A DNA stretch of 64,000 bases from the human T2T-CHM13v2.0 reference genome, Homo sapiens, in the NCBI RefSeq assembly GCF_009914755.1, contig NC_060925.1. One strand, 5' to 3'. Positions 25,765 through 51,258 of this stretch are shown here, one piece after another. The first letter of the stretch is position 1, and each line of letters begins with the position of its first letter. A program made the position numbers and the translations under genes. The notes beneath the pieces were generated by a model, which worked only from the letters and a program-made list of their open reading frames with translations, did not search any database and had not been told where the DNA came from.

Positions 25765-26353
25765 GCCTCAACCACATTTGCTGTGTGTCTTATCTTATTT
25801 GCTCCTGGCCATCTACCCAGACTGTCTGTCTGTCTGTCACTGCCTCTTCCAAGGGACTGGCTGGTGATCCTGGCAGTGGCTGGGTTCTAAAGGATTCTGC
25901 TGGGCATAGTAAGGCGCTTGAGAATTCTTGCTCCCATTCCTGAGAGACTCAGAGCAGGAAGCCCCATGAGGCACTGTGGAAAGGATGTCTCTTTCTTGGC
26001 CTGGATCTCCCATTCATTCATCCAGCCGTATTGAGTACTTTCCATAATTGCACAGAGCTTGTGTCTCATTGAATAGGACCCCAAGGGGGTGGAATCTCCA
26101 TCAGAGAGAACCAGGGTCCCTTTTACCTTCTCCACTATATGACTGCATCACTTCTGTTAGGTCTCCAGGACCCAATCTCTATTGTTTTTCTCAGATGGCT
26201 TCCAGGTACCCTCTCCAGGCTTGCTGCACAGCTGTCATCAGGACGTTCTCTCTGGGTTTACTTCCTCTCTTTCCTGGGTACCTGTGAGAGAAATGTCTTT
26301 AGTCCTTGCATAACTGAAAGTGCCTTTACATGCTTACTGAATACTCTGGCTGA

Positions 26354-26710
26354 TGATTTAGTCTGTTCTCACGCTGCTAATAGAGACATACCCGAGACTG
26401 GGTAATTGATAAAGGAAAGAGGTTTAAAGGACTCACAGTTCCACAGGGCCTGGGAGGCCTCATAACCATGGCAGAAGGCGAATGAGGACCAAAGTAATGT
26501 CTTACATGGCAGCAGGCAAGAGGGCGTGTGCAGGGGAACTCCCACTTATAAAACCATCAGATCTTGTGAGACTTATTCACTACTGTGAGAACAGTATGGG
26601 GGAAACTGCCCCCATGATGGAGTTTTCTCCACCTGGCCCCCACCCTTGACACCTGGGGATTATTACAATTCAAGGTAAGATGTGGGTGGGGACACAGCCA
26701 AACCATATCA
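26354..26710 (-). mobile_element. THE1 (MaLR) solo LTR
   Basis: Minus strand starts TGATATGGTTTGGCTGTGTCCCCACCC; about 355 bp. Confidence 0.88.
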
Positions 26711-26794
26711 GCTGGGGATAGAATTCTATGATGAAAACCTTCAGACTTCTAATAGATTTATTCACTTTTTTCTAGAATTGAGCATTTCTGGTGA

Positions 26795-27138
<344 letters not shown>

Positions 27139-28610: not shown

Positions 28611-28926
<316 letters not shown>

Positions 28927-28954
28927 TAACATTTTACTTAAAAATCTGTATATG

Positions 28955-29325
<371 letters not shown>

Positions 29326-29676
29326 TTAGTTCCTGTGGATAAACTATATTTTGCCTAGTCATTCTTATGCTATGGCATGTGTAGATTTTTCTAACTTATT
29401 TATTTGTTTTTAGAGCAGGGTGATCATGTTTTGACTAATTCTTTCCCGTTTTTGGTGACTTTGAGTAGATCCCCAAAGCGCTTACTACAAGGTAAAGGAT
29501 GAGACTGGTTTAATGGTATTACAACAGATAATTTCATTGCTCTCCAGAGACAATAACTTAATTTATGGTGCCACCAGCAAGGTACACGGATCATTCTGCA
29601 CTATTTTAGACACTTAGGAGATCGCGATTTCATCTTATGATTTTTTTTTTTTAATAAGAACACCTTCACATTTTCT

Positions 29677-29980
29677 GGCTGGGCATGGTGGCTCATGCCT
29701 GTATTCCCAGCACTTTGGGAGGCCGAGGCGGGTGGATCACTTGAGGTCAGGAGTTTGAGACCAGCCTAGCCAATATGGTGAAACCCTGTCTCTACTAAAA
29801 ATACAAAAATTAGCCGGGCATGGTGGTGGGCACCTGTAATCCCAGCTATTCAGGAGGCTGAGGCACAAGAATCACTTCAACCTGGGAGGCAGAGGTTGCA
29901 GTGAGCCAAGATCGTGCCATTGCACACTGCACTCCAGCTTGGGTGACAGAGTGAGATTCCATCTCAAAAAAAGAAAAAAA
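29677..29980 (+). mobile_element. AluS element
   Basis: Dimeric Alu with polyA. Confidence 0.9.
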
Positions 29981-32295: not shown

Positions 32296-32304
32296 CATTC
32301 CTGA
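32296..32304 (+). CDS. GSTM2: Putative GSTM2 alternative terminal exon, coding part HS*
   Basis: Pyrimidine tract then ggtag|CAT TCC TGA, in phase with exon 7; matches my recollection of a GSTM2 isoform ending ...RFEHS. Confidence 0.55.
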   Translation, partial: HS

Positions 32305-32695
32305 TGTTTGGATTCAGGCTGGTAAGTGACAGTGATTTATAATCATCCTTGCCTGTGTTGTCCTTCCCATGTTAGGTCATGTCTGTAGTTTATGACAATC
32401 TGTGTCATCCATGCCATTTTCAAAATTTTTGAAAACATATCCAGCCTAATGCTGAGGATAAAATGCCCTTTTGTGTTGTTATTTTTCTTTATCACGCTTT
32501 TTGTACTTCATTCAGAATCTTTATCTCTTAACATGTTTTGGCCTGTTTGTGTTTCTTCCACTTGGTGGTAACATCAATTAACATAGAGTTTAGAAAAATG
32601 TTTCCCCAATTTAAAAAATCACTTGTACTACATCTTCTTTCTTAGTTCTGATTTGTATTAACTTATAATTATATTTTTTGTTTTTGTTGTACTAA

Positions 32696-33010
<315 letters not shown>

Positions 33011-33699
33011 AGTTACCTAACTTTTAAGAGAATAAACTATTACATATAACAAGCAAATTGGTTAAAGTTTCAATATTTCTCTTAAGGTCACTTATTGCTT
33101 CCACTTCTTTTTCCATCTCTAACTTTGTGCCTGTTCTACTTTCTTGAAATTCTAGTTTGTTTGCCTTATTCTTGGTATCACAGGCATGTTGGAAAAATGT
33201 TTTCTCAATTCAAATTTGGTAGCATCTTCAAATGGTGATTTCTATTTTCTTCTTTTCAGATTGAAGAAAAGATTCTTTATATTTCAGATTTCCTAAGTTT
33301 ACCCAAACAATATTTAAGAGACTTTAATACATTTCCATGAATTAGGATACATTTTATTTTGTCTGTCAGTATTTGTTTCTAATAGATTAGTTTTTAAAAT
33401 TCTGACAACATGTTAGGTAGATTTTCTGTTAATTTGCCTTGAGAATGTAAGAATGTTGTCAGAAGAGACAGAAGGAATTATGAATTCCAGTCCAGAGGTC
33501 CCATTACAGGCCCTTGGTAAAGTGGGACCCAGTGCATTTTGACTGTCTGGCACAGCATTGTTTTAAAAATTAGAACTTTTCCACATTTTGCAGTTCAGAC
33601 AGCACATACAAATGCAGAAGTCCAGGCCCTGTCGGGACTGAGTTTCTGTGTGGTGACAACTGGCTACAACCCCTTCCTTCTGAACACTTGCAGCTTCCC

Positions 33700-34133
33700 T
33701 CATCCCTGCTGCTCCTGATCCCCGTCCACAGACCCACTTTCCCTGCTGGTGTGATCCTTGTGGCCACTATGGCAGCTACTTTGGAGAGCCGCTAGTCCAG
33801 TCCTTCCCGCCTTCCGCAGAGCTCTACTCCTGCTTCTGAAGAAGCCACCTGGGGCCTGGCCTTCTTCCTGGCTCCTCAGAGTCCTTGCAACAGCAGGCAC
33901 TACTTCTCTCTCCTGCACTCAACCCCTCTCCCACTCCACTGCCTCTCAGTGTGCCAAAACACGAAGATGTGTCCTGATTTTCAAAATCTCTCCCCTGAAG
34001 TTCCCACCTGATATGTAGTTGGAGATGGGCAAATACAGTGTCCTTGAAGCATCATTTTATTCATAGTGCCTGGAATGTAGTAGGATCTCGACAATTGTTG
34101 TTTCAATAAAGGAATGACCAAATATATTAATAC
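33700..34133 (+). repeat. Block paralogous to GSTM4 upstream 5085-5530; continues at 41759-41965 after the ERV insertion
   Basis: Near-identical translation PVLPAFRRA.LLLLKKPPG.W.PSSWLLRVLATAGT in both copies; homology resumes at atactaatgtaaca. Confidence 0.9.
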
Positions 34134-34656
34134 TGTAAAAAGTAAAGTAGAGGTTCCTCTTCAAAGAGACTTTTCTCCCCATCTAATTAAGAATAAGTCG
34201 TAACTTCTCTTAGAAGCAAAATTTATTCAAAGACCGGTGCTGATATTCTGAAATATCTGCTAGCTGTAATAAAGAAATTAATGTACTTTATGTTCTTAAC
34301 TCCCACAATTTAGCCTAAATACTTGCCCTGGCATGCTTATACTGATCCAAACAAGCATGAGGTCATAGCCTGTTCCTCTTCCTTATTTGAAGGTGTTTTT
34401 ACCTTTCTCAGCGTTCCACAAGTGAGTTCCCCCTTCCTTTGTTCTCCTCTGCCTCTGCCTCTTTTAAAAAGTTCTAAGTTGCTAGCCAATCAGGACAAAT
34501 ACAGAATGTGAGGTCCCGTTCCAGCCAGTGGAAACTGGACACAGCAGTAGGGTGGACACATCAAGTTATAAATGACCCTTTCTCCTTTGTTCAGTGTACT
34601 CTCGTGGTAAAACTGCTGGCGAGTGTACCCTTTCTGCAGAAAGTAAAAATGGCCTT

Positions 34657-37600
34657 TGTTGCAGGAAGTCAGGGACCCCGAATGGAGGGACCGGCTGGAG
34701 CTGCAGCAGAGGAACATAAATTGCAAATATTTCATTTTAATATGGACATTTATCAGTTCCCAAATTAATACTTTTATAATTTCTTATGCCTGCCTTACTT
34801 TAATCTCTTAATCCTGTTATCTTCTTAAGCTGAGGATATAGGTCACCTCAGGACCACTGTGATAATTGTGTTAACTGTACAAATTGATTGTAAAACATGT
34901 GTGTTGGAACAATATGAAATCAGTGCACCTTGAAAAAGAACAGAATAACAGCGATATTTAGGGAACAAGAGAAGACAACCATAAGGTCTGACTGTCCGCA
35001 GGGTCAGGCAAAATAGAGCCATATTTTTCTTCTTGCAGAGAGCCTATAAATGGACATGCAAGTAGGGAAGATATTGCTAAATTCTTTTCCTAGCAAGGAA
35101 TATTAATATTAATACTCTGGGAAAGGAAAGCATTCCTGGGGGGAGGTCTATAAATGGTCGCTTTGGGAATGAATGTCTGTCCTATGCAGTTGAGATAAGG
35201 ACTGAAATACACCCTGGTCTCCTGCAGTACCCTCAGGCTTACTAGGGTGGGGAAAAACCTGGCCCTGGCAAATTTGTGGTCAGACTGGTTCTCTGCTCTT
35301 GAACCCTGTGTTCTGTTGTTTAAGATGTTTATCAAGACAATACATGCACCGCTGAACATAGACCCTTATCAGGAGTTCTATTTTGCCCTTGTCCTGTTTC
35401 CTCAGAAGCATGTGATCTTTGTTCTGCTTTTTGCCCTTTAAAGCATGTGATCTTCCTACCTACCCCCTGTTCGTACACCCCCTCCCCTTTTGCAATCCTT
35501 AATAAAAACTTGCTGGTTTTGAGGCTCGGGCGGGCATTACGGTCCCACTGATATGTGATGTCACCTCCAGCAGCCCAGCTGTAAAATTCCTCTCTTTGTA
35601 CTCTTTCTCTTTATTTCTCAGCCAGCCGACACTTATGGAAAGTAGAAAGAACCTACATTGAAATACTGGGGGCAGGTTCCCCCAATATCTGGTGCACCAA
35701 CATGGTTTTCTTTTTCCTAAGTGCATGTGGGAACCTGATTCCCTTTGGTAGGTGTGGAGAAACGATCATCAGTCCAGTCCTCAGAAACGCTTGTTCGGCT
35801 CCCTGATGATTGGTGAATTTTCTATGTATTGTCTCGGGTAACTATGGGTCACATGGAGTCTAAATATTATGCTTATCTCTGCTATATTAAACTCCTGTTA
35901 AAACAGGGTGGAGTTTGGGTGCCCATGGAAAATATGGTCACCCTATTCAGGGTGTTGGAAGAACACTGTCCTTGGTTTCCTGAAAAGGGAAAATTAGATG
36001 TGGAACTATGGGATCGCGTTGGTGCAAAATTCCAGGAACTGATCCCATCAGGAAATTATGTTCCCTTCACTGTTTGGGGTGATTGGGCCTTGGTATGTGC
36101 CATCCTAACGACATACCAATCCCGTGACCCCCTGCAGTTACCACAGTTTTCTGAATCTGGCGACCTTCTACCTCTTCCACAGCTTTCCTCTCCCACTCGG
36201 GCTTCATTATCTGCTCAGCCTCTCCCTTCACCTACTCCTCCCCCACCTAACGATATTGAGGATTCAATATCTAACTCCGGTGACTTTGGCTTAATGTCAC
36301 CCCCGATGGTCTTATTTCTTTTCATGAAGACCTGATACTTGTAGCTCCCATGGCCCTGACTCGGACAGCTCTGCACCATATCTATGCTAACTCTTCCCTT
36401 TTCAAATCTTTGCAGGCTTTGCCTCCAGAGCCATCTAATGGCTCCAGACCAAACTACAATTTACCTGTAATTCTGCAGGCCCTCCCCCACCGCAGCCCCT
36501 CACCCTCCTGTCATTTCGGTCCCTCAACCAGTCACTTTGCCATTCACTCAACCTGCTTCTCTGTACCCTTCTTCACACATGGACGCCCCTGCCACTCTGG
36601 TTGCACAGGATTTCCCAATAATCACCAGTATGCTTCTGTCTCTTCTGCTCCCCCAATGCACCTTTCTCACACTCTCATACTGGTCTGACCTCCTGAACCT
36701 CAGTTTCCCTTATCTACACATACTTTTACTGTCACTTCTATGCCAACTCCATCTCATGTGCCTGCTCTTGAAACTTCCATGCAATGCTTATTACGCCAGA
36801 ACAAAGAAACAAGTGGATTAGAGGTGTGGGCTTATCCGGTCACGCTGGAACCTCCCAATGCTCAAGGGGTACAAATGCGTTGATATGCACTGCTCAATCT
36901 TACCTTTTCAAAAGAATTCAAGGATGCTTGTGCTCAGTATGGTCCTGCTTCTCCATATGTTAAAATGGCATTACAGACTCTTTGTACTGAGGTCATTTTG
37001 CTTCCTTCAGAATGGGACCTTTTGGCGAAAGCTGTTCTAACTCCATCTCAGCATTTACAATTCTGTACCTGGTGGTCAGAGGAGGCCCGTCTGCAGGCTC
37101 AGCTAAATTGGGTTGATGGCATTCTAATTACTCAGGCTCAGCTCACAGGCTCTGATAATCACTCTGACACTACCGCCCAATTAGACTTTGACGCTCTCAC
37201 CACGGAACAAGTAACAAAGTTGTGTATGAGAGTTTGGGATAAACTAGGTGCCCCAGGCCAAGCTCCTGTTTCTTTTACTACTGTTAAACAGGGTCGCAGT
37301 GAATTACATCCTGATTTTTTGGCTAAATTACAAGATGCTGTTCAAAATCTGTCTCTGATGATTACGCTCAAGGTATTCTCCTTCATATGTTAGCTTTTGA
37401 GAATGCGAACCATGAGTGTAAAGTGGTCATGCGTTCTGTCTAATGACAAAATTTACCTGATCACGAGGTGTGCCTGCATATATTAAAGCTTGTGAAAGCA
37501 TTGGATCAGAGACCCACAAAGCTATTCTGTGGGCACGGGCCATGAAGGATGGCAATCAAACTGGCTTGACTGAATTCTTTTCTTGGAGCCTGCTATAATT

Positions 37601-40600
37601 GTGGTCAACTTCATCATACCCAAAAAAATTGCACTGTTAAAAGCGGCCAAGCCAGCTCAACAAACATGGCCAAATGCTCCTGCTACTGTTTGCCCTCATT
37701 GTCGTAAAGGTAAACACTGGGCAAGTACTTGCCACTCTAAGTCTGATATAGATGGCAATCCCTTGCCACAGAACCAGGGAAATGGGAAGCAGGGCCAGTC
37801 CCAGGCCCCAGTATCAAATGGGACACCTCAGACTCAGACCAATATTGTGTTTCTGCTTCAAGCGGTCCCAATACAGCCCCCAGCACAGGCAAATTTACCT
37901 ACAGCCAACCCAGATGGGTCCCAGTCGCTTCTTCTGTCTCAGTACAATGCTTGTCTACCTCCACAGTAGGGGGCAGGGCGGTCAATCTCTGTAGTACCAC
38001 TCCTCTAAATTTACTACCGAATTCTTTGCCTTTAATTGTCCCCACGGGGGCCACTGGCCCTTTACCTCAAGGTTTGGTGGGCCTGGTGTTAGGTAGGGCA
38101 TCCACCTCTGCTAAAGGTATCATAGTTCATACTGGTCTCATTAATTCTGATTCCTCTGATGAGATTAAAATAATCGTGTCTGCCAAGGTTCCTGTTTCCA
38201 TTCCGGCCAGTGAGTCAATTGCTCAACTACTTTTACTACCTAATATTGTTTTAAACAAAGGAGATAAGACAGGGGGCCCTGGGATGGGCTCTGGCGGTGA
38301 AAAAGCCGCTTATTGGATTAAAGTAATTTCTAAACAACAGCCCACCTGCACCATACATATTAAAGGAAAAAAGTTTGAGGGCCTAGTAGATACTGGGGCT
38401 GATGTTTCTATTATTTCCTCTAATTTATGGCCTTCTTCCTGGCTTAAACATCCCACTAACATGGGACTAGTAAGGGTTGGAAAAGCTGATGAAGTTCACC
38501 AAAGCACATTTATCTTGCCTTGCACTGGGCCTGATGGTCAAAAGGGAACAATTCAGCCTTATATCATGCCAATCCCCATTAATCTTTGGGGTAGACATTT
38601 GCTGGAACAATGGGGGGCTGAAATTAATATTCCACATAACTCTTCTCGTGCTCCCAGTCAACATATAATGGAAAACGTGGGGACTGTTCCTGGACTCAGT
38701 CTCGGTCCAAAACATGAAGGAATTACTAAATTCCTTTATGGTTTAAAAGCATAATTTAACCACTCCCCACTCCCAATTCCATTTAGCATTGTTTACTTTA
38801 AACTTTCTAAATGTTCCTAAAGACAATACTCTGACTGCAGCCGAACACCATTATACAGGCAAAAAATTCTCCCTAAATGAAAGCAAGCCAGTGTTATGGA
38901 AAAACTCCCAGACAAATACCTGGGAACCTGGAACAATTATAATGTGGGGAAGAGGGTATGCTTGTGTTTCACCAGGATATCATCAATCCCCTGTCTGGGT
39001 GCCCACTAGAAGACTTTAACTTCGTGTGAATACTGACAATGAAAAACACAGGGAAGAGATGTCCACGTCAGAGACTGCCCTCATACCTGGTGAGATCTGT
39101 GCCAACTCCTCAAAAACTGGCACACCAAATCAAAATGGATCTCATTCAATCCTCCCTAATGGCAACAGAGACCCCTCTAACTAATCCCACTTCTCCTAAT
39201 TACCTTTCTTTTTCTCCTTACAAACCTGAAAATCTCACCATTTCTATTAGCCTGAAAATAACATCCCTCTGTTCTTCTCTTCCTCCTTCAGCACTGGATC
39301 TCGCTTACAATAGGTTTTATTTAATAATTCTACTCCTTATACTTTCTGTCTCACCAGTTTCCCCTCACACTGATTTGCCTGCTACACAAAATTATTCTTA
39401 TTGGGCTTATGTGCCTTTTCCTCCACTTATTCGACCTCTCACCTGGATGAATGCTCCTGCGGAAATCTACACTAACGATAGTGTGTAGATGCCTGGAGCT
39501 ATAGATGACCATTGCCCTGCTCAACCAGGAGAAGAAGGCACTGCATTTAATGTTACTATGGGTTATAAATACCCTCCTCTGTGCCTCAGACATGCAACTC
39601 GTTGTATCCATCTAGAAACTCAAGTCTGGGCTGCTTATCTTCTGGAGAGATTAGCTACAGGAAAATGGGGACATTTGGTCTCCGGCCTCTCCCTTTGTCC
39701 TTTAAGACAAATGAAAAGGGGAGTAATAGGAGATACCCCATACTTTCAATATAAACCTGTAGGAAAACTATGTCCTAAAAATTTTGAGGGCCCATCTAAA
39801 ACTTTAATTTGGGGAGATTGTGTTAACTCACATGCAGTAGTATTAAAAAATGACTCATATGCTTTAGTAATAGACTGGGCACCAAAGGGCTATTTAAAAA
39901 ACACTTGCTCCTCTGGGGGAGGGGAATTCCTGGAGGCTACTTATTTTATTTCTTATTGGGAGGACGAGGATCATCATCCTACTTTGCATAGGTGGTTCGG
40001 CTCATTCTTTACCTTAAAATGGGAAGATAAGGACATTACCCTCCACCCCCAAGGCCTTGTATGATATTCCCCATTCTGAGCCCAGAACACCCAGAACTTT
40101 CGAAATTGGCTATTGTCATGTCTGGACTGCCAGTATCTGTGATTCTGAACCCCATGATAAATCCCCTTTGAACCTTTTTCCTCTTTTTGATGCCGATCCT
40201 CCTTTACGGGACTCCAATTGGCATTACGATAATTCTTATCGACCCAGGTATGCCCCTCTACTTCTTCAGCATCCCCAGGCACCTCGGTTTGCTTCTTTAT
40301 GGTGGAGAACATCGGGCATTGCCACCGCCGCTCCTCTCCCTCAGTATCAACATAGATTCAAGCATTCTGCTTTGTTTACCTCCAACCTGACTATTCCTAT
40401 ACAGAGTTGTGTTAAGCTTCCTTACATGCTGTTAGTGGCAAATATCAAAATTTGGACAAACAATCAAACTGTCCAATGCATTGTCATTTATACACTTGTG
40501 TTGACTCCCGTTTTGACTCCAGGAAAAGTGTAATGTTGGTTGGAGCTCGAGAAGGAATCTGGATACTGTGTGCCGGACCAGCCAAAGAATCCTGTGTCAA

Positions 40601-41685
40601 AACCGAGAGAACGAATAAGCCTTCATCACCATGGCACATTTATATAAAAAGAAAGGGAGAGATGTTGCGGGAAGTCAGGGACCCCGAATGGAGGGACTGA
40701 CTGGAGCCGCGGCAGAGGAACATAAATTGCAAATATTTCATTTTAATATGGACATTTATCAGTTCCCAAATTATTACTTTTTACATTTCTTACGCCTGTC
40801 TTACTTTAATCTCTTAATCCTGTTATCTTCATAAGCTGAGGATATATGTCACCTCAGGACCACTGTGATAATTGTGTTAACTGTACAAATTGATTGTAAA
40901 ACATGTGTGTTTGCACAATATGAAATCAGTGCACCTTGAAGAAGAACAGAATAACAGTGATTTTTAGGCAACAAGAGAAGACAACCATAAGGTCTGACTG
41001 CGTGCAGGGTCAGGCAAAATAGAGCCATATTTTTCTTCTTGCAGGGAGCCTATAAATGGACATGGAAGTAGGGAAGATATTGCTAAATTCTTTTCCTAGC
41101 AAGGAATATTACTATTAATACTCTGGGAAAGGAATGCATTCCTGGGGGGAGGTCTATAAACGGCCACTCTGGGAATGTCTGTCCTATGCAGTTGAGACAA
41201 GGACTGAAGTACACCCTGGTCTCCTGCAGTACCCTCAGGCTTACTAGGGTGGGGAAAAACCTGGCCCTGGCAAATCTGTGGTCAGACTGGTTCTCTGCTC
41301 TTGAACCCTGTGTTCTGTTGTTTAAGATGTTTATCAAGACAATACGTGCACTGCTGAACATAGACCCTTATCAGGAGTTCTACTTTTGCCCTTGTCCTGT
41401 TTCCTCAGAAGCATGTGATCTCTGTTCTGCTTTTTGCCCCTTAAAGCATGTGATCTTTGTACCTACCCCCCGTTCGTACACCCCCTCCCCTTTTGCAATC
41501 CTTAATAAAAACTTGCTGGTTTTGAGGCTCGGGCCGGCATCACGGTCCTACTGATATGTGATGTCACCCCTGGCGGCCCAGCTGTAAAATTCCTCTCTTT
41601 GTACTCTTTCTCTTTATTTCTCAGCCAGCTGACACTTATGGAAAATAGAACCTATGTTGAAATACTGGGGGCAGTTTCCCCGATA
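34657..41685 (+). mobile_element. HERV-K(HML-8)/MER11 provirus with internal deletions
   Basis: LTRs 34657-35687 and 40663-41685 (TGTTGC.GGAAGTCAGGGACCCCGAA). Lys-like PBS near 35690, PPT near 40647-40662, TSD GCCTT. Broken gag from ATG 35844 with CCHC knuckles; pro 37951-38754; pol reduced to the integrase tail (about 38755-39020); partial env about 39040-40570. Confidence 0.92.
37951..38754 (+). pseudogene. HERV-K pro frame (dUTPase-like region plus aspartic protease), 267 codons open
   Basis: GLVLGRAS..GIIVHTGLINSD (dUTPase motifs), FEGLVDTGADVSII (catalytic DTG), INLWGRHLL. Confidence 0.8.
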
Positions 41686-42789
41686 GCCTTGCTGAGGAAA
41701 TTAAATTTATGTTCAAGTGCTATTTCTTTATGGAACCAAGGAACAAGTATTTCAAACAATACTAATGTAACAGTACTGGTTCTATGTGTTTCAAAATTAT
41801 TATTCTCATGAGTGTTAGCTTTCTTAAAAAATCGTTTTTATCAATTGGATCTAGACATCTTATCTTTCACAGCTCAAGACCCATTAACTCAAAATCATAA
41901 ACTCTTAATGCATAATGAGAAATATAATGATTCCTAGGGCCAGGCACTTGTGTCTGTGCTGGTGCTATTGCCTCAATGCAGGAAAATCTATGTGAGAATT
42001 CACTGTGAGGCCAAAACTGCTTCCTAAACATGGATACCTGCCAGGTATCTGAGCTGGGAGTACTGCCCAGGTCTGGATGGGTGGGGAGTGTTTGCAACAA
42101 GGACTGTGCCTTGCCAGCCTCAGTGACACAGTGTCCAAGTGCCCCAACTTAGCAGCCACCTGCTGACCACCTGATTTCTGTGGCCTAATAGGGATGTGAT
42201 GAAGTCTACCTGTTTACTCAACCCCAAACCACACATTATCCAGGTGGTTTGAAACTTTTTTGATATACTGGGTTCATCCTCTGGAGTCCTAACAATGTTT
42301 TAGCTAATTTACAAAAAAACAAAAACAAAAACAAAAAACAAAAAACTACTTTTTTTGCAGCACAACAGCCTGGTTTACATTGCAAAATGATTTCTCATTA
42401 AAGGTCTATCATCTATTTCCATATATCCATTATTATTTGTAATATCCTTTAAAAAAAGCAGTCAACCCCAGGCTAATCCATTGCACAACTCTTTTGAAAG
42501 TCTTCCTTCTACCTTGAAAGAAGAAAGTTGGCAGGTTGGACATTGTTCTTGCGGAGGTTGTACCATGGGTCACATATCACGGTGTGACTTCAAAGGCCAC
42601 TGGAGCCACCGTCTCATACTGAAGAACACACATGGGTCAGGAGCCAGGTCCAGGTCCGGCCTGGTGGATCTGGAGAGGGGAGAGTCCCTGCCTGTGATCC
42701 TGTGGGGAGCCCTCAGGCTCCTCTCTGGCCACCATCCTCTGACCTCCCTCCTCAGCAGGACAGGGTTCTGGCTTCTCTGAGGGACAGGT

Positions 42790-43450
42790 TCTGTGGCAGG
42801 CCAGGTGTCACTAACACAGGCCTCCATAACAACTGTTTCAGTACTGACTGAGTGATGAAATTAAATATTAAAAGCTGAAAAAAGCCAGTACCTTTATACA
42901 GAGGCTGGATGTAACAAAAGCCCACCAAGAGTTTTGCTTAGGCCTTTCCTGGGCCTTAAAGCATGACAAAACAATGAAGGAATTCTTAACAGGACCTATT
43001 TAGAATTAAACAAGTTTTATTGTGAGTCTGAAGAAACTCCCCAGGCCTCCACAAACAAGTTTACTGGGCATCTGAAGGAACTCCCCAAACCTCCATGATT
43101 TAGCAGGAGACAAGATAAGGGCAATCATCCCCCGCACCTGGACCCATTTAGATTAAGTAACTAGACTGAGGCTCCAGAGTAAGGTCCTCAGGACCCAGAC
43201 CTCAGTTACAGATTAAAGAAGTTAATCACTTATGTCTTTAGATGAATGCACACTTACTTGTAGACATATACCTTAGAAGGTATATATGCTCTGGAAAACT
43301 TTAATTTTGAGTTGGTCTGGTAGTAATTTCCAGGCCTTCTCCCTGTAACTGGTTGCAGAAATAAAACCTCTCTTCCTCCCCATTTGATCTGCATCTCGTT
43401 ATTGGGCCTAGAGAAATAGCAGCCGGACCCTCAGTTTGGTCCGGGAAGTT
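42790..43450 (+). mobile_element. ERV1 (MER4-group) solo LTR upstream of GSTM5
   Basis: LTR-like features: tatatatgct, aataaa near 43360, end cagtttggtccgggaa; subfamily and left boundary uncertain. Confidence 0.5.
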
Positions 43451-43949
43451 CTTCCATCCTCCCTCGCCTGCTCTCTGTGGCCACTGCACTCACTGTTGCT
43501 GTTGCTGTTCCGGTCTCTGTGAGGTTCACCTAGTGGACTGGCTGGACATTTCTAGGGGGCACCTCAGATACCTCACCAACTTGCTGGATCTGATCCTTGG
43601 ATTTCGATTCATAAATTGTGCCAAAATACGAAGTGGCTAATTTACATAGTACTTAGCCAGATGACCGAAGGACTCAGTATCCAAAGGCCCCTAACAGAAA
43701 ACACAGACCACATTTCCTTTACTCTGGCCCTTTTCCTGGGGGTCCTTCCTATACCACTGACACTGTTCCTGTGTAGGCGGGGCTAGAGGGGAGACTAAGC
43801 CCTCGGAGTAGCTTTGGGATCAGAGGAAGTCCTGCTCTTACAGTGACAGGGGCTGAATTAAATTCCCAGGTTGGGGCCACCACTTTTTAGTCTGACCCCT
43901 GCAGCCGGAGTCTCCCAGAGCCCTTGGGAACTGGGCAGCGGAGAGAAGG

Positions 43950-44450
43950 CTGAGGGACACCGCGGGCAGGGAGGAGAAGGGAGAAGAGCTTTGCTCCATT
44001 AGGATCTGGCTGGTGTCTCAAGCGCACAGCCAAGTCGCTGTGGACCTAGCAAGGGCTGGATGGACTCATGGAGCCTCAGGGCGGGTTGGGGAAGCTGTCG
44101 AGGCCGAGCCCCGCTTTGGGCTTCTGGGCGCCCTGACCTCGCTCCCGGAACCCTGGGGACTGGGAGGCGGGAGGGGGCTTATTGATTCCAGCCCCGGGCG
44201 CTCGCTCGGGGGCCTACAGAATGGCGTGTTTCGGGGTTGTGGCGGGCCGAGGGGCGGGGTCGCAGCAAGGCCCCGCCTGTCCCCTCCTGGGCCTCTCAAA
44301 GTCTGAGCCCCGCTCCGCTGATGCCTGTCTGCAGAATCCGCACCAACCAGCACCATGCCCATGACTCTGGGGTACTGGGACATCCGTGGGGTAAGCGAGG
44401 GTCCTCTGGTGGGTGGGACAGGGGGCGGAGGCGGGGATGTGTGGAGTAGC
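43950..44450 (+). promoter_or_regulatory. GSTM5 CpG-rich promoter
   Basis: CpG-rich, GC box GGGGCGGGG near 44251, homologous to the GSTM4 and GSTM2 promoters. Confidence 0.75.
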
Positions 44451-47400
44451 TGCAGGACTGGCTCTAGGGACCGTTCCTCTTCAGGGCTGCCCGCCTCAGA
44501 AGGGCCTGTGCATGACGCTGTGTGTGTGTTTGGGGGTGGGGGCGGGTAGAGGAGGCGACGGGTACGTGCAGTATAGACTAGGGGCTGGCCTGGGGCAGAG
44601 AAAGTCACCAAGTCAGGGACCCTCCATCTCTGACCCGAGCCGCGGGCCATCTCTCCCAGCTGGCCCACGCCATCCGCTTGCTCCTGGAATACACAGACTC
44701 AAGCTATGTGGAAAAGAAGTACACGCTGGGGGACGGTAATGGCACCCTCGTGTCCGGGCCCTGCCCACTCACGCTGAGTTGGCACCAAGCAACCCATGGT
44801 GGCCACCTGTGGCTGCCTCTGCAGGCCTCCCCTGCTGGAGCTGCAGGCTGTCCCTTCCCTGAGCTCCCGTGAGTGAGCCCTCTGGCCTTGCAAGGCAGAA
44901 TGCTGGGGCGGGATGCTGGACACCCTGTCTAATTGGGTTGGGTGTCCCTCAGAGCTTCCCTAAACCCTGGAAGCCTTAGCCGTTGTGGGGTCCAGAGCCC
45001 TCAGTGGGATTCTTTGTCCCTGAACCCTGGGATGTGGGACTGAGTGGTCAGATTCTAGATCCACCTGTCTCAGGGATCTTGCCACTGGCTCCTTGGGAGG
45101 GTCCCCGGGAAGGAGGGCTGGGCTCTGGGGAGGTTTGTTTTCACTTCTTCCCCACCACAGCTCCTGACTATGACAGAAGCCAGTGGCTGAATGAAAAATT
45201 CAAGCTGGGCCTGGACTTTCCCAATGTAGGTGCAGGGGAAGGGGCGGTTTTGGGGGAAAGTGCGACGTGTCTCTGACTGCATCTCCTCTCCCCACCTTAG
45301 AGGTGTTAAGATCAGGAGTCTTCTGCCCAATTCCTCTCACTCTTGGCTGTCTACACAGCCCTTGCATGATGTTCTGTGTCCCAGCTCATTTATTAGTGTG
45401 ACAGTATTTCTATCTCAGGCCTGCCATGAGCAGGCCCTGGTCTCCTCTCTGCCCTTGCATATGGGAAGGGGATGCTGGGGAGCCTGGTGGCCCAACTGAG
45501 CTTCCCCGGTTTCCCATCTATCCAGCTGCCCTACTTGATTGATGGGGCTCACAAGATCACCCAGAGCAATGCCATCCTGCGCTACATTGCCCGCAAGCAC
45601 AACCTGTGTGAGTGTGGGTGGCTGCAATGTGCGGGGGGAAGGTGACCTCCTCCTTGGCTGGGCTGTGATGCTGAGATTGAGTCTGTGTTTTGTGGGTGGC
45701 AGGTGGGGAGACAGAAGAGGAGAAGATTCGTGTGGACATTTTGGAGAACCAGGTTATGGATAACCACATGGAGCTGGTCAGACTGTGCTATGACCCAGAT
45801 TTTGTGAGTCCCACACCCCACTCCCAGTCACCCATTTCCCTGCCTTTTGGCCCAGACCAGGGAGGGACTTCCAAAGTCAGGTCTGTAGCAGACTCCGGCC
45901 AGCTGACTGGAGACGTCTATAACCTGGTTCTCCAAAATGTCCACACGAATCTTCTCCTCTTCTGAAGATTCTTGTGGACATTTTGGAGAACCAGACCACG
46001 GACAACTGGATGCAACTGGTCATGATCTGCTACCACCCAGAGTTTGTGAGTCTCCCCAGTGAGCTGCACCTGGCAGAGTTTGGATTTGGGGCCAGGACTC
46101 TTGCATTCCTGCACGCACTGGTCTTTTCTTAAGTCCTTGGTACCACTCATCCTCCAAGTGCTTTCCCATACTATCAGCAGTTATTCTCACGACTCCAATG
46201 TCATGTCAACAAAAGCAGAGGCAATTCCCACCAATCTTAGGACACGATCCAGGCATCCCACGGTGGAAATTCAATTCCTAGATGGTAAAATTTGTGTTCA
46301 GAATCTCCTTCATCTCCTCTGGCCTCTGGCCTCTGTCATGGGTCATTTCTGTCAGTTGATTTATATCACCTACCTGCTCCTAGAATATACAGACTCAAGT
46401 ACAAGACCAAGGAATGTAATGGCACCCTCAAATTGCATCTTCTCCTCAAAGTTTTCCAAGTGCTGTCATTGACATGCACCGGGATCTGTGCATTTTCATA
46501 ACAGACAGCTCAGAGGCAGCCAGAGGGCCTTTATTCCTCTCCCTCCTTCCTTTCAACTTGAACTTCTCATCTCCCTGGAAACTAGTCAATGTTCATTGTT
46601 TTCTTCTGTCACCCCATTAGAAGGAACTTTCTACTTCTTTCCCTGAGCTCCTTTAGTTCTTTGCATCCTTGATTCTGCCCCTGTCTGGATCCAGAGGCTG
46701 CCAGGTGCTCGGGCGCTCATGCGGCTGACCCAGAGGCTATTGGGAGGCCAGTGAGGACAGATTCAGGAAGAGCATCTCATTCTGATCACTTCAGATAGGG
46801 TCTGGCACCCAGTCAGAGTCTAATAAATGCTGATGTATCCAATTGAAGCCTGGGCACTGCCCCGGTTTTAGTTGTGGGGAAGATGGCTGCTTGCCTGTGG
46901 CCAGCCTGGGCCATCTACAGCCCTGGGGAGGCCACGTCTGTGCAGGGAGCTTTTGTCTGAGGGTGGTGACAGCTGTTTTCTGCCTCAGGAGAAACTGAAG
47001 CCAAAATACTTGGAGGAACTCCCTGAAAAGCTAAAGCTCTACTCAGAGTTTCTGGGGAAGCGGCCATGGTTTGCAGGAGACAAGGTAAAGGAGGAGTGAT
47101 ATGGGGAATGAGATCTGTTTTACTTCATGTGTTTCGGGGTTTTCAGCCCACACATTCTTGGCCTTCTTCAGATCACCTTTGTGGATTTCCTTGCCTATGA
47201 TGTCCTTGACATGAAGCGTATATTTGAGCCCAAGTGCTTGGACGCCTTCCTAAACTTGAAGGACTTCATCTCCCGCTTTGAGGTGATGCCCCCATCCTCC
47301 TTTCTCTTTGATGCCCCTTGTTCCTTTCTCTCCTTTCAGATGCTTTCCCAGTCCTGGAGCTACACAAAGAATAACTCGTATGTATTGAGTACGGGCTTCA

Positions 47401-49468
47401 TGCCAGGAATCATGCCCAGCACATTATACCTATCGTGTAGAATTTGAAATTTCCAACATTCCTACAGGGTGACAGAATTATCTTGCCCATTTTAGAGATA
47501 AGAAAACTGAGAATGAGAGGGTCAGTCCTTTGCTCAGGGTCCCAGAGCCAGTGGAGGCTGTGCTGGGCTCCCTGTGAGCCTCTGGATCTATGGGTGGCAG
47601 TCAGGGCTCTCCCATTTGTGACAAAAGGAGAAGCCTCAGGCCTCATCCAGCCTGGGTTTCACAGCCCAGAACACTTTGAAAGAGGCAGAGCACTTCAGGA
47701 CCACGGATGCAGCTGGCAATAGTAGGACTGACACACAGTGGCATTGATGTTGAGTACTAAACCTGCAGGCAGTATTCATAGCCACCCCCAGAAGCTTTGC
47801 ATGATCGGACCCCCATGTGGAAAATCCTGAGATCCGGAGCTGTGGCTGGAGCTGGATTAGGGTACATATGTGGGTGCCCCTGTTGAAGCAGTGTGTGTTG
47901 AAGTGCTCTGTGCTGGGGCACTCTCCTTCTTTATCTTTCTTCCTCTCTTTTTTTCCCTCCAATGTTCCACGTCTTCCCCCTGTGAGATGAGTAGCACACT
48001 GATTTTACTCCTATTCACCGACCTTCTCCTCTGCATGAGGCAGGGTGTGAGGCACAGTGGGAGTTGCATAGATGACTGCCCCATCCTGGAAATGAGTGCA
48101 GTGAGAGGCCTGCAGGCAGAGCAGCCTGTGAGGTGTGTGTGGCACCACCTGGGTACCGGGCCTGGGGCCTGCCCCTCACTCACGGGGAACCATCCCTCAC
48201 CTGTGTTGAAGTTGTTTGAGAGCAGCAAATCCTACTTTAGTACAGATTTGGGGATTTGAGGCATTAGTCCAACAGGCTTCTGAGCCTAGAATCTGTTTCC
48301 CTTTCCCACTCCCCATCAAGAAATCTGCTTGCTCAGCTAGTTCCCATCAGCTCTGGTTCTGGTCCAGCCTGAGCAGCCTTGGGGTTATGTAAGAGGTGGT
48401 GGGAGGGGAGCGGTGGGGAACAGCCGAGGGCTGGGTCATGGAGCCTGCCTGGGCCTGGCCCTGGCCCTTTGGGGAGAGGGAGCCCTGGATCTCTTTGAAT
48501 TCTTTAGAAGTTACATGGTCATTGAATCCTGGTAAGATTGTGTGCAGCACACCTGAGTGTCATGTGGCCTGGCTAGCAGTAGTAGGGCTGGAGATGTGAT
48601 GGGGGCACAGGGACATAGGGAGATTTAGCTCAGGTACCAGGTGGAGAAGTTTGGACTTTATGCTTTAATGGGAATGATTAGAGCCTGGTCTGGCCTTCCT
48701 TTGGTGGTTCACCCTTACCCTATTCAGTTTCATCCAGGTTTTGCTAAGTCATTGGGTGAGATCTGTGCTCTCTTCTTGGCTACACAGGTGTGTTCTGAGC
48801 CCCTTTGTTCTGCTGGAGGTCCTTTCTGTGTGTGCAATCCTAGGCAAGCCAAGAACCTCCCTGTGAAAAAGGAGAATGTTTGTGCCGACAAGGAGTGACA
48901 GGATCTGGCATGGGGTGTGGCTGGGTGGAAGAGGAGGAGAATTTGGCAAAAACATGCTAGAACTGAAGACAGAACCAGGCTATATTCCAGCCCTGTCCCA
49001 CTTACTAGCTATTTGAGTGTGAGGAAGTTGCTGAACTTCTGTTCTTCTATATGAGAAACGGTGATAATAGAACTGACCATGGAGGGTAGTCGAGTGGATT
49101 TTCTAAGCCTGTGTTGTAATTTCTGTTGGATATAAAGCACCCAGCACAGTGTAGATCTTTCGTAAATGGTAGCTGTTATTATGGTATAACATTACTTAAA
49201 GGAAGTTGGAAGAGTTAACTTAGAAGAGCTGGGGACCTAAGAGACCGTGTGATGCTCCAGCACTTGAGCCCACATGGAAAGGCTGTGGCCAGGGCCCTGA
49301 CCTGCTGTGCCTGCAGCAAAGCTACTTGAGCCCTTCTAGACAGCAGACCTGGCTCTGGCCCCTTCTTCCCGCCCTCAGGGTTTGAAGAAGATCTCTGCCT
49401 ACATGAAGTCCAGCCAATTCCTCCGAGGTCTTTTGTTTGGAAAGTCAGCTACATGGAACAGCAAATAG
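44355..49468 (+). CDS. GSTM5: Glutathione S-transferase mu 5 (8 coding exons, 218 aa)
   Basis: Exons 44355-44390, 44660-44735, 45161-45225, 45526-45607, 45703-45803, 46989-47084, 47172-47282, 49379-49468, all GT-AG. Protein ...[11 protein letters not shown]...[20 protein letters not shown]...[11 protein letters not shown]...[29 protein letters not shown] is diagnostic of GSTM5. Confidence 0.97.
45851..45964 (-). pseudogene. Inverted copy of GSTM exon 5 in GSTM5 intron 5
   Basis: Reverse complement reads cagaagaggagaagattcgtgtggacattttggagaaccaggttatagacgtctccagtcagctggccggagtctgctacagacctgacttt...ccctccctggtctgg. Confidence 0.92.
45964..46051 (+). pseudogene. Direct, 5'-truncated pseudo-exon 5 with retained donor site
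   Basis: Translates [27 protein letters not shown] followed by |gtgagt. Confidence 0.9.
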
Positions 49469-50283
49469 GGCCCAGTGATGCCAGAAGATGGGAGGGAGGA
49501 GCCAACCTTGCTGCCTGCGACCCTGGAGGACAGCCTGACTCCCTGGACCTGCCTTCTTCCTTTTTCCTTCTTTCTACTCTCTTCTCTTCCCCAAGGCCTC
49601 ATTGGCTTCCTTTCTTCTAACATCATCCCTCCCCGCATCGAGGCTCTTTAAAGCTTCAGCTCCCCACTGTCCTCCATCAAAGTCCCCCTCCTAACGTCTT
49701 CCTTTCCCTGCACTAACGCCAACCTGACTGCTTTTCCTGTCAGTGCTTTTCTCTTCTTTGAGAAGCCAGACTGATCTCTGAGCTCCCTAGCACTGTCCTC
49801 AAAGACCATCTGTATGCCCTGCTCCCTTTGCTGGGTCCCTACCCCAGCTCCGTGTGATGCCCAGTAAAGCCTGAACCATGCCTGCCATGTCTTGTCTTAT
49901 TCCCTGAGGCTCCCTTGACTCAGGACTGTGCTCGAATTGTGGGTGGTTTTTTGTCTTCTGTTGTCCACAGCCAGAGCTTAGTGGATGGGTGTGTGTGTGT
50001 GTGTGTTGGGGGTGGTGATCAGGCAGGTTCATAAATTTCCTTGGTCATTTCTGCCCTCTAGCCACATCCCTCTGTTCCTCACTGTGGGGATTACTACAGA
50101 AAGGTGCTCTGTGCCAAGTTCCTCACTCATTCGCGCTCCTGTAGGCCGTCTAGAACTGGCATGGTTCAAAGAGGGGCTAGGCTGATGGGGAAGGGGGCTG
50201 AGCAGCTCCCAGGCAGACTGCCTTCTTTCACCCTGTCCTGATAGACTTCCCTGATCTAGATATCCTTCGTCATGACACTTCTC

Positions 50284-50289
50284 AATAAA
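50284..50289 (+). terminator. GSTM5 distal polyA signal (proximal AGTAAA at 49863-49868)
   Basis: AATAAA about 820 nt after the stop codon. Confidence 0.65.
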
Positions 50290-50961
50290 ACGTATCCCAC
50301 CGTATTGTAATCATGGTACTTGTTTTTCACCCAAACTCAATCATAAATTTATTGAAGAGAAAAGCCATGTCTTACTGAACTTTTTACCTCGAGTATCATT
50401 CACAGTTCCTGAAATACAGTAAATGTTTAACACATGTGAAAATTTGAAAGAATTCCCTCAAGGGAAGATTCTGCCAACCTGTACAGTCATTATTGGGATT
50501 TAGAGCTCTGGATATAGTTGTATTAACCAGAGAAGATATAGGATAACGTTCAGAAGATTTTACATGTACGTGTCTTAGAGAATGAGCCAGCAGCTCTCTG
50601 TAACTTCAGCTTTAATAGCTGCTAGCTGTCCTTTGAATAGCTTAACCTGAGATGGGGCAGCCTGGTTTGTTGGGTCACACAGTAGCAATCTGTGTGGTCA
50701 GCAGGTGTCAGTATTTTATATGAAGTCATCTGCAAAGGAGCAGGACTCATTGGATAACCATCTGATGAGCAGGTTCCTCCAACAGTGGCTGGATAGTGGA
50801 GTTGGGCCTTGGTAAGGCCCAGCCTTGAGATGTAGCCCAGAACAGGGAGATTTTGAGGAGAGTCTTGTGGGGCCATTGTCCAGATGATCACTGCCTGCAG
50901 CTGCACTTGAAAAGGGAGCAATAGGTGTAATGTTAAGGACATTAAGAAGTAAATGACTAAT

Positions 50962-51258
<297 letters not shown>

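What the first reader, a model, noticed from the sequence alone, without database searches (positions are those of the whole stretch)
45703..46051. Exon 5 / inverted exon 5 / pseudo-exon 5 foldback in GSTM5: a potential RNA-structure splicing switch
Seen: (1) 45919-45964 is the exact 46-nt reverse complement of real exon 5 at 45712-45757. (2) The same segment can instead pair locally, 45924-45954 with 45964-45994, as a 31-bp stem with one mismatch and a 9-nt loop. (3) The distal inverted copy is GSTM4-like (gacgtctcca.tcagctggcc.gagtctgctacag, plus the M4 intron start ccctccctggtctgg). (4) The direct copy resembles GSTM1 exon 5 as I recall it (ENQT.DN.MQL.MICY.PEF) and keeps a gtgagt donor at 46046. 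Inferred: a template-switch (dup-inv-dup) event mixing paralogs. It offers two mutually exclusive helices, one masking exon 5 near its acceptor and one releasing it. Skipping the 101-nt exon, or using the distal donor (stop at 45963-45965), would truncate the protein. dsRNA made here would also match GSTM4 exon 5.
Basis: partly seen in the sequence, partly recalled or inferred. Interest (0 to 1): 0.8.

Follow-up and report, generated by a model that had tools for sequence, protein, structure and literature searches.

The report
Inverted exon copy guiding GSTM5 RNA editing
Intron 5 of human GSTM5 holds a backwards copy of a neighbouring gene's exon 5 that can fold onto the real exon 5 as double-stranded RNA, which most likely explains the known A-to-I RNA editing of this exon rather than acting as a splicing switch.

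Summary
GSTM5 exon 5 (A, 45703-45803) is followed by two copies. B (45839-45964) is an inverted, GSTM4-derived copy of exon 5, 92% identical over 126 nt. C (45964-46045) is a direct, GSTM1-type copy of exon-5 nt 20-101 with an intact donor.

The structure is already in print: Wang & Leung 2009, seen only as a title and one citing sentence.

The proposed two-state splicing switch is not supported. The A:B fold has a 50-bp unbroken helix at -152.5 kcal/mol. The B:C hairpin reaches only -100.2. A:B takes 98% of the ensemble and B:C 0.2%.

The A:B helix does coincide with A-to-I editing. Four published GSTM5 exon-5 sites map to 45716, 45724 (K94R) and 45726 (I95V), all inside the perfect helix, and to 45780 (R113G), at an A.C mismatch. 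B therefore most likely acts as an intronic editing-complementary sequence. That is an inference, and my ten searches found no such statement in print.

On origin: a chr3 retrocopy of GSTM5 carries the C-type half-exon. C runs collinearly into the native intron. The foldback sits at the 3' edge of a gene-conversion block. C is probably the displaced ancestral half of exon 5.

Verdict: a known structure with a plausible new functional link, of modest interest.

The parts
45703..45803 (+). A: real GSTM5 exon 5 (101 nt). The 5' half (nt 1-51) matches GSTM4 at 50/51. The 3' half is GSTM2-type (42/51).
   Evidence: Hub annotation
45712..45761 (+). Exonic strand of the 50-bp unbroken helix: 46 exact Watson-Crick pairs (45712-45757), then G.U, G-C, A-U, U.G.
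45716..45716 (+). Published A-to-I site (synonymous, E91E). It lies opposite U 45960 in the perfect helix.
   Evidence: TCGA table of PMC9445000, mapped
45724..45724 (+). Published A-to-I recoding site K94R. It lies opposite U 45952, in an A-A-G context.
   Evidence: REDIportal, DARNED, Gabay2022 and TCGA tables; peptide in PMC12295206; mapped
45726..45726 (+). Published A-to-I recoding site I95V. It lies opposite U 45950.
45780..45780 (+). Published A-to-I recoding site R113G. It lies opposite C 45896, an A.C mismatch in the imperfect part of the A:B helix.
   Evidence: Gabay2022 table, mapped
45804..45843 (+). First 40 nt of intron 5 after the real donor. GSTM2-like (87-89% over 28-30 nt) and unlike the GSTM4 intron start.
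45839..45964 (-). B: inverted GSTM4-derived copy of exon-5 nt 10-101 plus 34 nt of intron 5. Proposed editing-complementary sequence. Its core is 45915-45964.
   Evidence: 92.1% over 126 nt
45964..46045 (+). C: direct GSTM1-type copy of exon-5 nt 20-101. Probably the displaced ancestral half of the exon. Its part 45995-46045 is annotated as an exon of another transcript.
   Evidence: hub annotation
46046..46051 (+). Distal GTGAGT donor. The 9-mer 46043-46051 is identical to the real exon-5 donor 9-mer.
45753..45994 (+). 242-nt GT..AG interval removed in the annotated alternative transcript. Its length equals the direct-repeat spacing. Removing it gives an in-frame hybrid exon 5 of 101 nt.
   Evidence: Hub annotation
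45924..45994 (+). B:C hairpin: 31-position stem with 1 mismatch and a 9-nt loop, -49.8 kcal/mol. It is expected only when exon 5 is unavailable, for example in the excised intron.

Best explanation
What it is. A three-part mosaic at GSTM5 exon 5 and intron 5:
- A: the real exon 5.
- B: an inverted copy of exon-5 nt 10-101 plus 34 nt of intron, derived from the GSTM4 lineage.
- C: a GSTM1-type copy of exon-5 nt 20-101 that runs collinearly into the native intron.

How it works. In the pre-mRNA, B folds back on exon 5. This makes a 50-bp unbroken helix (46 exact pairs) that continues imperfectly over about 101 nt. This double-stranded RNA is an ADAR substrate. B serves as the intronic editing-complementary sequence for the published A-to-I sites E91E, K94R and I95V inside the perfect helix, and for R113G at an A.C mismatch. 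Editing must happen before intron 5 is removed.

Arm C is out-competed while exon 5 is present. It can pair with B only in the excised intron, so this is not a balanced two-state switch.

Origin (inferred, about 50% confidence). The foldback is a template-switch scar at the 3' end of a block homogenised by paralog gene conversion. The event gave exon 5 a new GSTM2-type 3' half with its own donor. It left the ancestral GSTM1-type half (C) stranded in the intron. The annotated alternative transcript can still splice C in.

Shown here: the sequence anatomy, the energies, and the mapping of the published sites. Inferred: that B is required for editing, that ADAR is the enzyme at this locus, and the origin model.
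For: Helix:
- 46-nt exact complement.
- 50-bp unbroken stack 45712-45761:45915-45964, kept in folds of 371 nt and 1.2 kb.
- z = -9.96.
- A:B -152.5 against B:C -100.2 kcal/mol. P(B core pairs with A) = 0.98; with C = 0.002.

Editing:
- The supplementary tables of PMC9445000 list four exon-5 sites in hg19 chr1: 110256296 (synonymous), 110256304 (K>R), 110256306 (I>V) and 110256360 (R>G).
- K94 is named in that paper's text.
- A K>R peptide ending at that lysine is listed for GSTM5 in Table 2 of PMC12295206.
- A single offset maps 11 of 11 listed GSTM5 coordinates onto window adenines with exactly the published amino-acid change.
- 4 of the 4 exon-5 sites lie in the A:B helix. Three sit opposite U in the perfect part. 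One sits at an A.C mismatch.
- In the alignment printed, none of GSTM4, GSTM2, C, the chr3 retrocopy or the chr6 retrocopy has G at these four positions. Mis-mapped paralog reads therefore do not explain the A>G calls.
- 45716 and 45724 have the A-A-G context. From recalled ADAR biochemistry, ADARs tolerate a 5' A and favour a 3' G.

Origin:
- B is 92% identical to GSTM4, where native GSTM5 intron 5 is only 75% identical to the GSTM4 intron.
- C plus its flank is collinear with GSTM4 exon 5 and intron 5.
- The chr3 retrocopy is GSTM5-type in exon 6 (94%) and exon 8 (92%, against 68-72% for GSTM4 and GSTM2).
- That retrocopy matches C at 42/51 and A at 35/51 in exon-5 nt 51-101. At the 17 sites where A and C differ, it is C-like at 10, A-like at 3 and neither at 4.
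- GSTM5 identity to GSTM4 and GSTM2 is 90-100% from 44600 to about 45600. It then falls, through about 80-90% between 45600 and 45800, to 46-85% in most 100-nt windows beyond.
Against: - No experiment links B to the editing. I saw site lists, not reads or editing levels.
- REDIportal also lists 7 sites in exon 4 (45554-45602). I found no complementary partner for them within 43000-51000 or in the whole window. Most of them are unpaired in the 1.2-kb fold. Either some GSTM5 editing does not need this helix, or those calls are false.
- A perfect 46-bp helix should be edited promiscuously. Yet only 3 of its 15 exonic adenines appear in the lists I saw. Three of those four tables list only amino-acid-changing sites; only the TCGA table also lists synonymous ones.
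- 45726 has a 5' G, a context ADARs disfavour (recalled).
- There is no significant sign that the helix is preserved by selection. B has 1 of its 10 mismatches to GSTM4 within the first 46 nt (hypergeometric P = 0.064).
- Thermodynamic folds ignore proteins, helicases and co-transcriptional splicing.
- Origin model: the retrocopy test is weak (one-sided p = 0.046, 13 informative sites). A retrocopy made from the alternative isoform would give the same pattern. GSTM1 DNA is absent from this assembly, so C could not be compared with it at DNA level.
Confidence: 0.7

Rival explanations
1. B pairs with exon 5, masking it, or with C, releasing it. The choice then sets exon-5 inclusion, or use of the distal donor and the hybrid exon.
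For: - The two helices share arm B and cannot coexist.
- The real donor lies in the imperfect part of A:B in the predicted fold.
- RefSeq annotates a transcript using 45703-45752 plus 45995-46045. It is in frame at 218 aa with no stop, and the removed interval has GT..AG ends.
- The distal donor 9-mer equals the real one.
Against: - The helices are far from balanced: -152.5 against -100.2 kcal/mol, and 98% against 0.2% of the ensemble.
- A and B are transcribed before C.
- The alternative junction lies inside a 22-nt direct repeat next to a strong hairpin. From recalled knowledge, this is the classic setting for reverse-transcriptase template-switch artefacts.
- I had no read data, no conservation data and no covariation data.
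- The selected transcript uses the whole exon 5 despite the helix.
Confidence: 0.12
2. A neutral scar only. It is a leftover of paralog recombination with no molecular consequence, and the editing calls in exon 5 are unrelated to it or artefactual.
For: - There is no significant excess conservation of the helix (P = 0.064).
- The GSTM cluster is riddled with gene conversion (passages of PMC5918908).
- K>R and I>V are conservative changes.
Against: - 4 of 4 published exon-5 sites fall in the helix, one of them at an A.C mismatch.
- The K>R and I>V sites each appear in four separate site tables (REDIportal, DARNED, Gabay2022, TCGA).
- A K>R peptide is reported.
- Paralog mis-mapping is excluded by the alignment.
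- A 50-bp perfect intramolecular helix is, by established ADAR biochemistry (recalled), a substrate whenever it forms.
Confidence: 0.1
3. Small-RNA source. The B:C hairpin, in the excised intron or a retained-intron RNA, is processed into miRNA- or siRNA-like RNAs. These would also match GSTM4 exon 5.
For: - A 31-position stem with one mismatch and a 9-nt loop, -49.8 kcal/mol.
- It draws generic miRNA-precursor hits in Rfam.
- B is 94.6% identical to antisense GSTM4 exon 5.
Against: - All Rfam hits are far below the gathering scores: 37.1 bits against 94, and 35.3 against 76.
- The hub annotation lists no miRNA here.
- I had no small-RNA data.
- The hairpin is out-competed by A:B until the exon is spliced away.
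Confidence: 0.04

Closest known systems
[quoted passage not shown]
   Same: The same locus and the same object: inverted GSTM exon copies inside a GSTM5 intron. PMC5414712 cites it as the example of a long inverted repeat with one arm in an exon, and says such stem-loops might create alternative splicing patterns.
   Different: I saw only the title and that one citing sentence. The paper is not held. I cannot say whether it covers the editing link, the energy imbalance, the chr3 retrocopy, or the reading of C as the ancestral half-exon.
Exon plus intronic editing-complementary-sequence hairpins of ADAR recoding sites (textbook case: GRIA2 Q/R site; recalled)
   Same: An exonic adenine is edited within a helix formed with a downstream intronic complement, so editing must precede splicing. 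One site sits at an A.C mismatch.
   Different: Here the complement is a 126-nt inverted copy of a paralog's exon, not a short dedicated element. The helix is long and perfect (46-50 bp). The 2009 title calls the acquisition 'primate'. Dependence on the complement is untested.
Competing-helix control of alternative splicing (docking/selector systems such as Dscam; recalled)
   Same: One arm (B) can pair with either of two partners (A or C). An annotated alternative product exists.
   Different: The stabilities differ by more than 50 kcal/mol. No orthologue covariation or read evidence was available.
Microhomology-mediated template-switch rearrangements (FoSTeS/MMBIR; DUP-TRP/INV-DUP architecture; recalled)
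   Same: Direct-inverted-direct order. There is 4-5 nt of microhomology (CCTG(C), 45839-45843) at the A-flank/B junction and 1 nt at the B/C junction.
   Different: The scale is about 250 nt, not kilobases to megabases. The three copies are of three different paralog types rather than copies of one template. This needs either switches between paralogs or later conversions.

Membership tests
ADAR exon/intronic-ECS editing hairpin | The edited exonic adenines lie in a helix formed with an intronic complement of the same pre-mRNA | tested here: met
   A 50-bp unbroken helix 45712-45761:45915-45964. The sites 45716, 45724 and 45726 lie opposite U. The site 45780 lies opposite C.
ADAR exon/intronic-ECS editing hairpin | A-to-G changes are seen in RNA at those positions and are not explained by paralogs | tested here: met
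   The sites come from published tables, and 11 of 11 coordinates map consistently. No paralog or retrocopy in the assembly has G at the four exon-5 positions (alignment). I did not see reads or editing levels.
ADAR exon/intronic-ECS editing hairpin | Editing is lost when the intronic complement is removed, and depends on ADAR1/ADAR2 | not testable with these tools
   This needs minigenes or knock-outs.
Competing-helix splicing switch | Two mutually exclusive helices share one arm | tested here: met
   B pairs with A (101 nt, 79%) or with C (94 nt, 71%).
Competing-helix splicing switch | The alternative helices are of comparable stability, so the choice can be tipped | tested here: not met
   -152.5 against -100.2 kcal/mol. 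Ensemble shares are 0.98 against 0.002.
Competing-helix splicing switch | The splice outcome follows the helix choice, and the arms co-vary in orthologues | not testable with these tools
   No RNA-seq and no primate genomes were on hand. Only the annotated alternative exons are known.
miRNA/mirtron precursor | A match to a curated precursor family at its gathering score | tested here: not met
   The best hits are 37.1 bits (gathering score 94) and 35.3 bits (gathering score 76).
Template-switch (MMBIR-type) rearrangement | Direct-inverted-direct order with microhomology at the junctions | tested here: met
   The order is A, B (inverted), C. The CCTG(C) overlap lies at 45839-45843 and there is a 1-nt overlap at 45964. 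Microhomology this short is weak evidence.
Template-switch (MMBIR-type) rearrangement | A single event copying one template | tested here: inconclusive
   The three segments are GSTM2-type, GSTM4-type and GSTM1-type. One multi-paralog event and several successive events cannot be told apart here.

The most novel reading that the evidence does not exclude
A single complex template switch occurred at the end of a paralog gene-conversion tract and did three things at once. It replaced the 3' half of GSTM5 exon 5, which lies in the alpha-4 / substrate-site region by recalled structure knowledge, with a GSTM2-type version. It left the ancestral GSTM1-type half as an intronic spare that can still be spliced in, giving two alternative enzyme versions. 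It also planted an inverted GSTM4 exon that became the editing-complementary sequence, creating recoding sites K94R, I95V and R113G. If so, this is a datable birth of an ADAR recoding site from paralog DNA.
Probability: 0.25. Interest if true: 0.6.

Novelty: already known. Interest (0 to 1): 0.38.

Why it matters
The origin of the intronic complements that make site-specific recoding possible is rarely traceable. Here the complement is plainly a borrowed paralog exon. The locus could therefore serve as a dated natural example of how a recoding site is born.

It also warns that the annotated hybrid-exon transcript lies across a direct repeat next to a strong hairpin. It needs evidence that does not depend on reverse transcription.

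For GSTM5 biology, the edits (K94R, I95V, R113G) and the possible hybrid exon change the helix that carries substrate-site residues. Their effect on the enzyme is unknown.

As a structure the finding is not new, and the splicing-switch idea gains no support.

Tried and rejected
- The 2009 paper could not be fetched by DOI.
- All ten literature searches found no paper linking the inverted exon to the editing sites. Subscription journals and PDF supplements are not covered.
- PMC11572221 concerns rat Gstm5 expression only.
- PMC5918908 has 0 occurrences of 'exon 5' or 'inverted'.
- Rfam gave only sub-threshold generic miRNA hits.
- I looked for a complement of exon 4 to explain the REDIportal exon-4 cluster and found none.
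- I tested whether the perfect 46 nt is better preserved than the rest of B. It is not significant (P = 0.064).
- I considered that GSTM2 intron 5 carries a relic of a C-like exon end at about 20078-20092. I rejected this because the stretch belongs to a repeat insertion with the same motif recurring.
- I considered an assembly artefact. I rejected it on the annotation and on the 2009 title.
- GSTM1 DNA could not be compared because this assembly has no GSTM1 locus.
- No primate genomes are reachable with these tools, so age and conservation could not be tested.
Full report
**1. Observation**

The sequence at 45480-46260 and the repeat search show three homologous segments.
- A is the real GSTM5 exon 5, 45703-45803.
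- B is an inverted copy. Its arms with A are 45712-45812 and 45864-45964: 101 nt, 79% complementary, 51 nt apart.
- C is a direct copy. 45964-46052 matches 45722-45810 at 80% over 89 nt, with a spacing of 242.

A script confirmed the following.
- 45919-45964 is the exact reverse complement of 45712-45757 (46 nt), and the exact match does not extend by one base either way.
- 45924-45954 pairs with 45964-45994 with 1 mismatch in 31 and a 9-nt loop.
- Both donors read GTGAGT.
- 45963-45965 is TGA.

Translation shows that this TGA is the first in-frame stop if exon 5 reads on into the intron.

Across the whole window there are 12 inverted pairs of 40 nt or more within 1 kb. These are two of them. 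By my reading of the hub's list of masked repeats, the other ten lie wholly or partly in masked repeats.

**2. What the pieces are**

BLAST within the window shows that B (45839-45964) matches GSTM4 8351-8226 at 92.1% over 126 nt without gaps. That span is exon-5 nt 10-101 plus 34 nt of GSTM4 intron 5. By contrast, native GSTM5 intron 5 is only 74-75% identical to the introns of GSTM2 and GSTM4. B is therefore a later import from the GSTM4 lineage, not an in-place duplicate of GSTM5's own exon.

In exon-5 nt 51-101, where the paralogs differ most, three types appear.

| Type | Members | Identity |
|---|---|---|
| GSTM4-type | GSTM4 and B | 46/51 |
| GSTM2-type | GSTM2, a chr6 retrocopy, and A | 42/51 each (A vs GSTM2; A vs the chr6 retrocopy) |
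| GSTM1-type | C and a chr3 retrocopy | 42/51 |

Translated, C (27 aa) hits human GSTM1 best among solved structures, at 22/27. The real exon also hits GSTM1 best, at 20/27 over the same span, and no GSTM5 chain was among the hits.

The first 40 nt of intron after the real donor are GSTM2-like. They overlap B by the 4-5 nt CCTG(C) at 45839-45843. B and C overlap by one base at 45964.

C and its downstream flank align collinearly with GSTM4 exon 5 and intron 5, all the way into the well-conserved part of the intron.

**3. Structure**

As RNA, 45690-46060 folds at -184.3 kcal/mol with z = -9.96, and 0 of 100 shuffles fold as well. A is paired to B.

| Condition | Free energy (kcal/mol) |
|---|---|
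| A..B in isolation | -152.5 |
| B..C in isolation | -100.2 |
| Whole 371 nt with A blocked | -118.9 |
| B:C core hairpin alone | -49.8 |

In the ensemble, the B core pairs with A with mean probability 0.98 and with C with 0.002.

A 1.2-kb fold keeps a 50-bp unbroken stack, 45712-45761:45915-45964.

A and B are also transcribed before C. C can realistically pair with B only when exon 5 is occupied or already spliced away, as in the excised intron.

Rfam gives only sub-threshold generic miRNA-precursor hits on the B:C hairpin.

**4. Literature**

*The structure is in print.* PMC5414712 (passages read) says that occasionally one repeat of a long inverted repeat lies in an exon, 'exemplified by GSTM5 gene'. 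[quoted passage not shown] That paper is not held, so I saw its title only.

*GSTM5 exon 5 is a listed A-to-I target.*
- PMC9445000 (passages) names hg19 chr1:110256304, K94.
- Its supplementary tables are labelled in the legend file as REDIportal, DARNED, Gabay2022 and TCGA. I matched tables to files by the order of the file numbers, which no call confirmed. On that matching:

| hg19 chr1 site | Change | Tables listing it |
|---|---|---|
| 110256304 | K>R | all four |
| 110256306 | I>V | all four |
| 110256360 | R>G | Gabay2022 |
| 110256296 | synonymous | TCGA |

- PMC12295206 Table 2 lists a K>R tryptic peptide of GSTM5 in muscle and plasma.
- The PDF supplements of PMC9445000 could not be read.

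**5. Mapping**

With one offset, fixed by placing K94's middle adenine at 45724, all 11 GSTM5 coordinates in those tables fall on adenines in the window. Each gives exactly the published amino-acid change on editing.

The four exon-5 sites map as follows.

| Window position | Change | Opposite base |
|---|---|---|
| 45716 | E91E | U 45960 |
| 45724 | K94R | U 45952 |
| 45726 | I95V | U 45950 |
| 45780 | R113G | C 45896 (A.C mismatch) |

The first three lie in the perfect helix and the fourth in its imperfect continuation.

None of GSTM4, GSTM2, C or the two retrocopies has G at these positions (alignment printed). Paralog mis-mapping therefore does not explain the calls.

The architecture is an exonic target with a downstream intronic complement, as at classical recoding sites (recalled: GRIA2 Q/R). 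From recalled ADAR biochemistry, an A.C mismatch and the A-A-G context of 45716 and 45724 are favourable.

I therefore take B to be the editing-complementary sequence. This is an inference. My ten searches found no such statement in print.

**6. Points against or left open**

- REDIportal alone lists seven further sites in exon 4 (45554-45602). I found no complement for exon 4 within 43000-51000 or in the whole window. Most of those sites are unpaired in the 1.2-kb fold.
- Only 3 of the 15 exonic adenines of the perfect helix are in the lists I saw.
- 45726 has a disfavoured 5' G.
- I saw no editing levels.
- The perfect 46 nt is not significantly better preserved than the rest of B. Of B's 10 mismatches to GSTM4, 1 lies in the first 46 nt (P = 0.064).
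- A is itself 50/51 identical to GSTM4 in nt 1-51. The perfect complementarity may therefore be a passive result of both arms being GSTM4-like.

**7. Origin**

*Identity profile.* Sliding identity shows GSTM5 at 90-100% to GSTM4 and GSTM2 from 44600 to about 45600, including 100% to GSTM2 over 45300-45500. Identity is intermediate (about 80-90%) between 45600 and 45800. Beyond that, most 100-nt windows lie between 46% and 85%. The foldback thus sits at the 3' edge of a homogenised block, presumably made by gene conversion.

*The chr3 retrocopy.* A processed pseudogene on chr3 (L003) is 89% identical to the GSTM5 CDS over 657 nt and has 5 internal stops. It is GSTM5-type in exon 6 (94%) and exon 8 (92%, against 68-72% for the others). 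Yet it carries the C-type exon-5 3' half. Of the 17 sites where A and C differ, it is C-like at 10, A-like at 3 and neither at 4 (one-sided p = 0.046).

*My preferred reading (about 50%).* The ancestral GSTM5 exon 5 had a GSTM1-type 3' half, which is C. One complex template switch, or a few successive events, then inserted three things:
- a GSTM2-type 3' half with its donor and about 40 nt of intron;
- an inverted GSTM4 piece;
- a repeat of exon nt 20-50.

*The alternative.* The intron acquired B and C, as the 2009 title suggests, and the retrocopy came from the hybrid isoform. I cannot exclude this.

*The annotated alternative transcript.* It uses 45703-45752 plus 45995-46045 and removes exactly the 242-nt interval between the direct repeats. 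The interval has GT..AG ends. The product is in frame at 218 aa with no stop. In effect it restores a C-type exon. The junction lies in a 22-nt direct repeat beside a strong hairpin. A reverse-transcription artefact must therefore be ruled out.

**8. Verdict**

The structure itself is already published. The splicing-switch mechanism is not supported by the energetics and remains untested.

The best-supported function is formation of an exon-intron duplex that is edited by ADAR. Whether the edits or the spare half-exon matter to the organism is unknown.

Noticed in passing
window 25777-43792; whole assembly: This assembly has no GSTM1 locus. Genome-wide searches with the C copy and with the retrocopy found only the GSTM4, GSTM2, GSTM5 and GSTM3 loci, plus one retrocopy each on chr3 and chr6. 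The annotation jumps from GSTM2 to GSTM5. This fits the common GSTM1 deletion allele (recalled).
   Followed up: partly
window 45554, 45569, 45584, 45595, 45596, 45599, 45602 (exon 4): Seven A-to-I sites are listed only in the REDIportal-derived table of PMC9445000. They map cleanly to exon-4 adenines. No complementary partner was found in the gene or in the window, and they are mostly unpaired in a 1.2-kb fold. They are unexplained: either false calls or a distant or trans partner.
   Followed up: partly
L003 (G000:C3:12255989-12256645, minus strand): A processed GSTM5-type pseudogene, 89% identical to the GSTM5 CDS, with 5 internal stops and a 3'UTR-like tail. Its exon-5 3' half is of the C/GSTM1 type, not the type of today's exon 5.
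   Followed up: yes
L009 (G000:C6, about 112225482-112226135, minus strand): A processed GSTM2-type pseudogene, 90.7% identical to the GSTM2 CDS. Its exon-5 3' half is as close to GSTM5's present exon (42/51) as GSTM2 itself is.
   Followed up: partly
window 45300-45500 vs GSTM2 about 19510-19710: GSTM5 and GSTM2 are 100% identical over these 200 nt, which cover most of intron 3. This points to a very recent gene-conversion tract.
   Followed up: no
window 20025-20079 and about 20080-20908 (GSTM2 intron 5): The start of GSTM2 intron 5 holds a tandem duplication of a roughly 27-nt C-rich motif that is single-copy in GSTM5. A long repeat-like insertion follows, absent from GSTM4 and GSTM5.
   Followed up: no
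window 45924-45994: At DNA level B:C is a near-palindrome, with 31-nt arms, 1 mismatch and a 9-nt spacer. From recalled knowledge, this kind of sequence is prone to hairpin or cruciform formation and to rearrangement.
   Followed up: no
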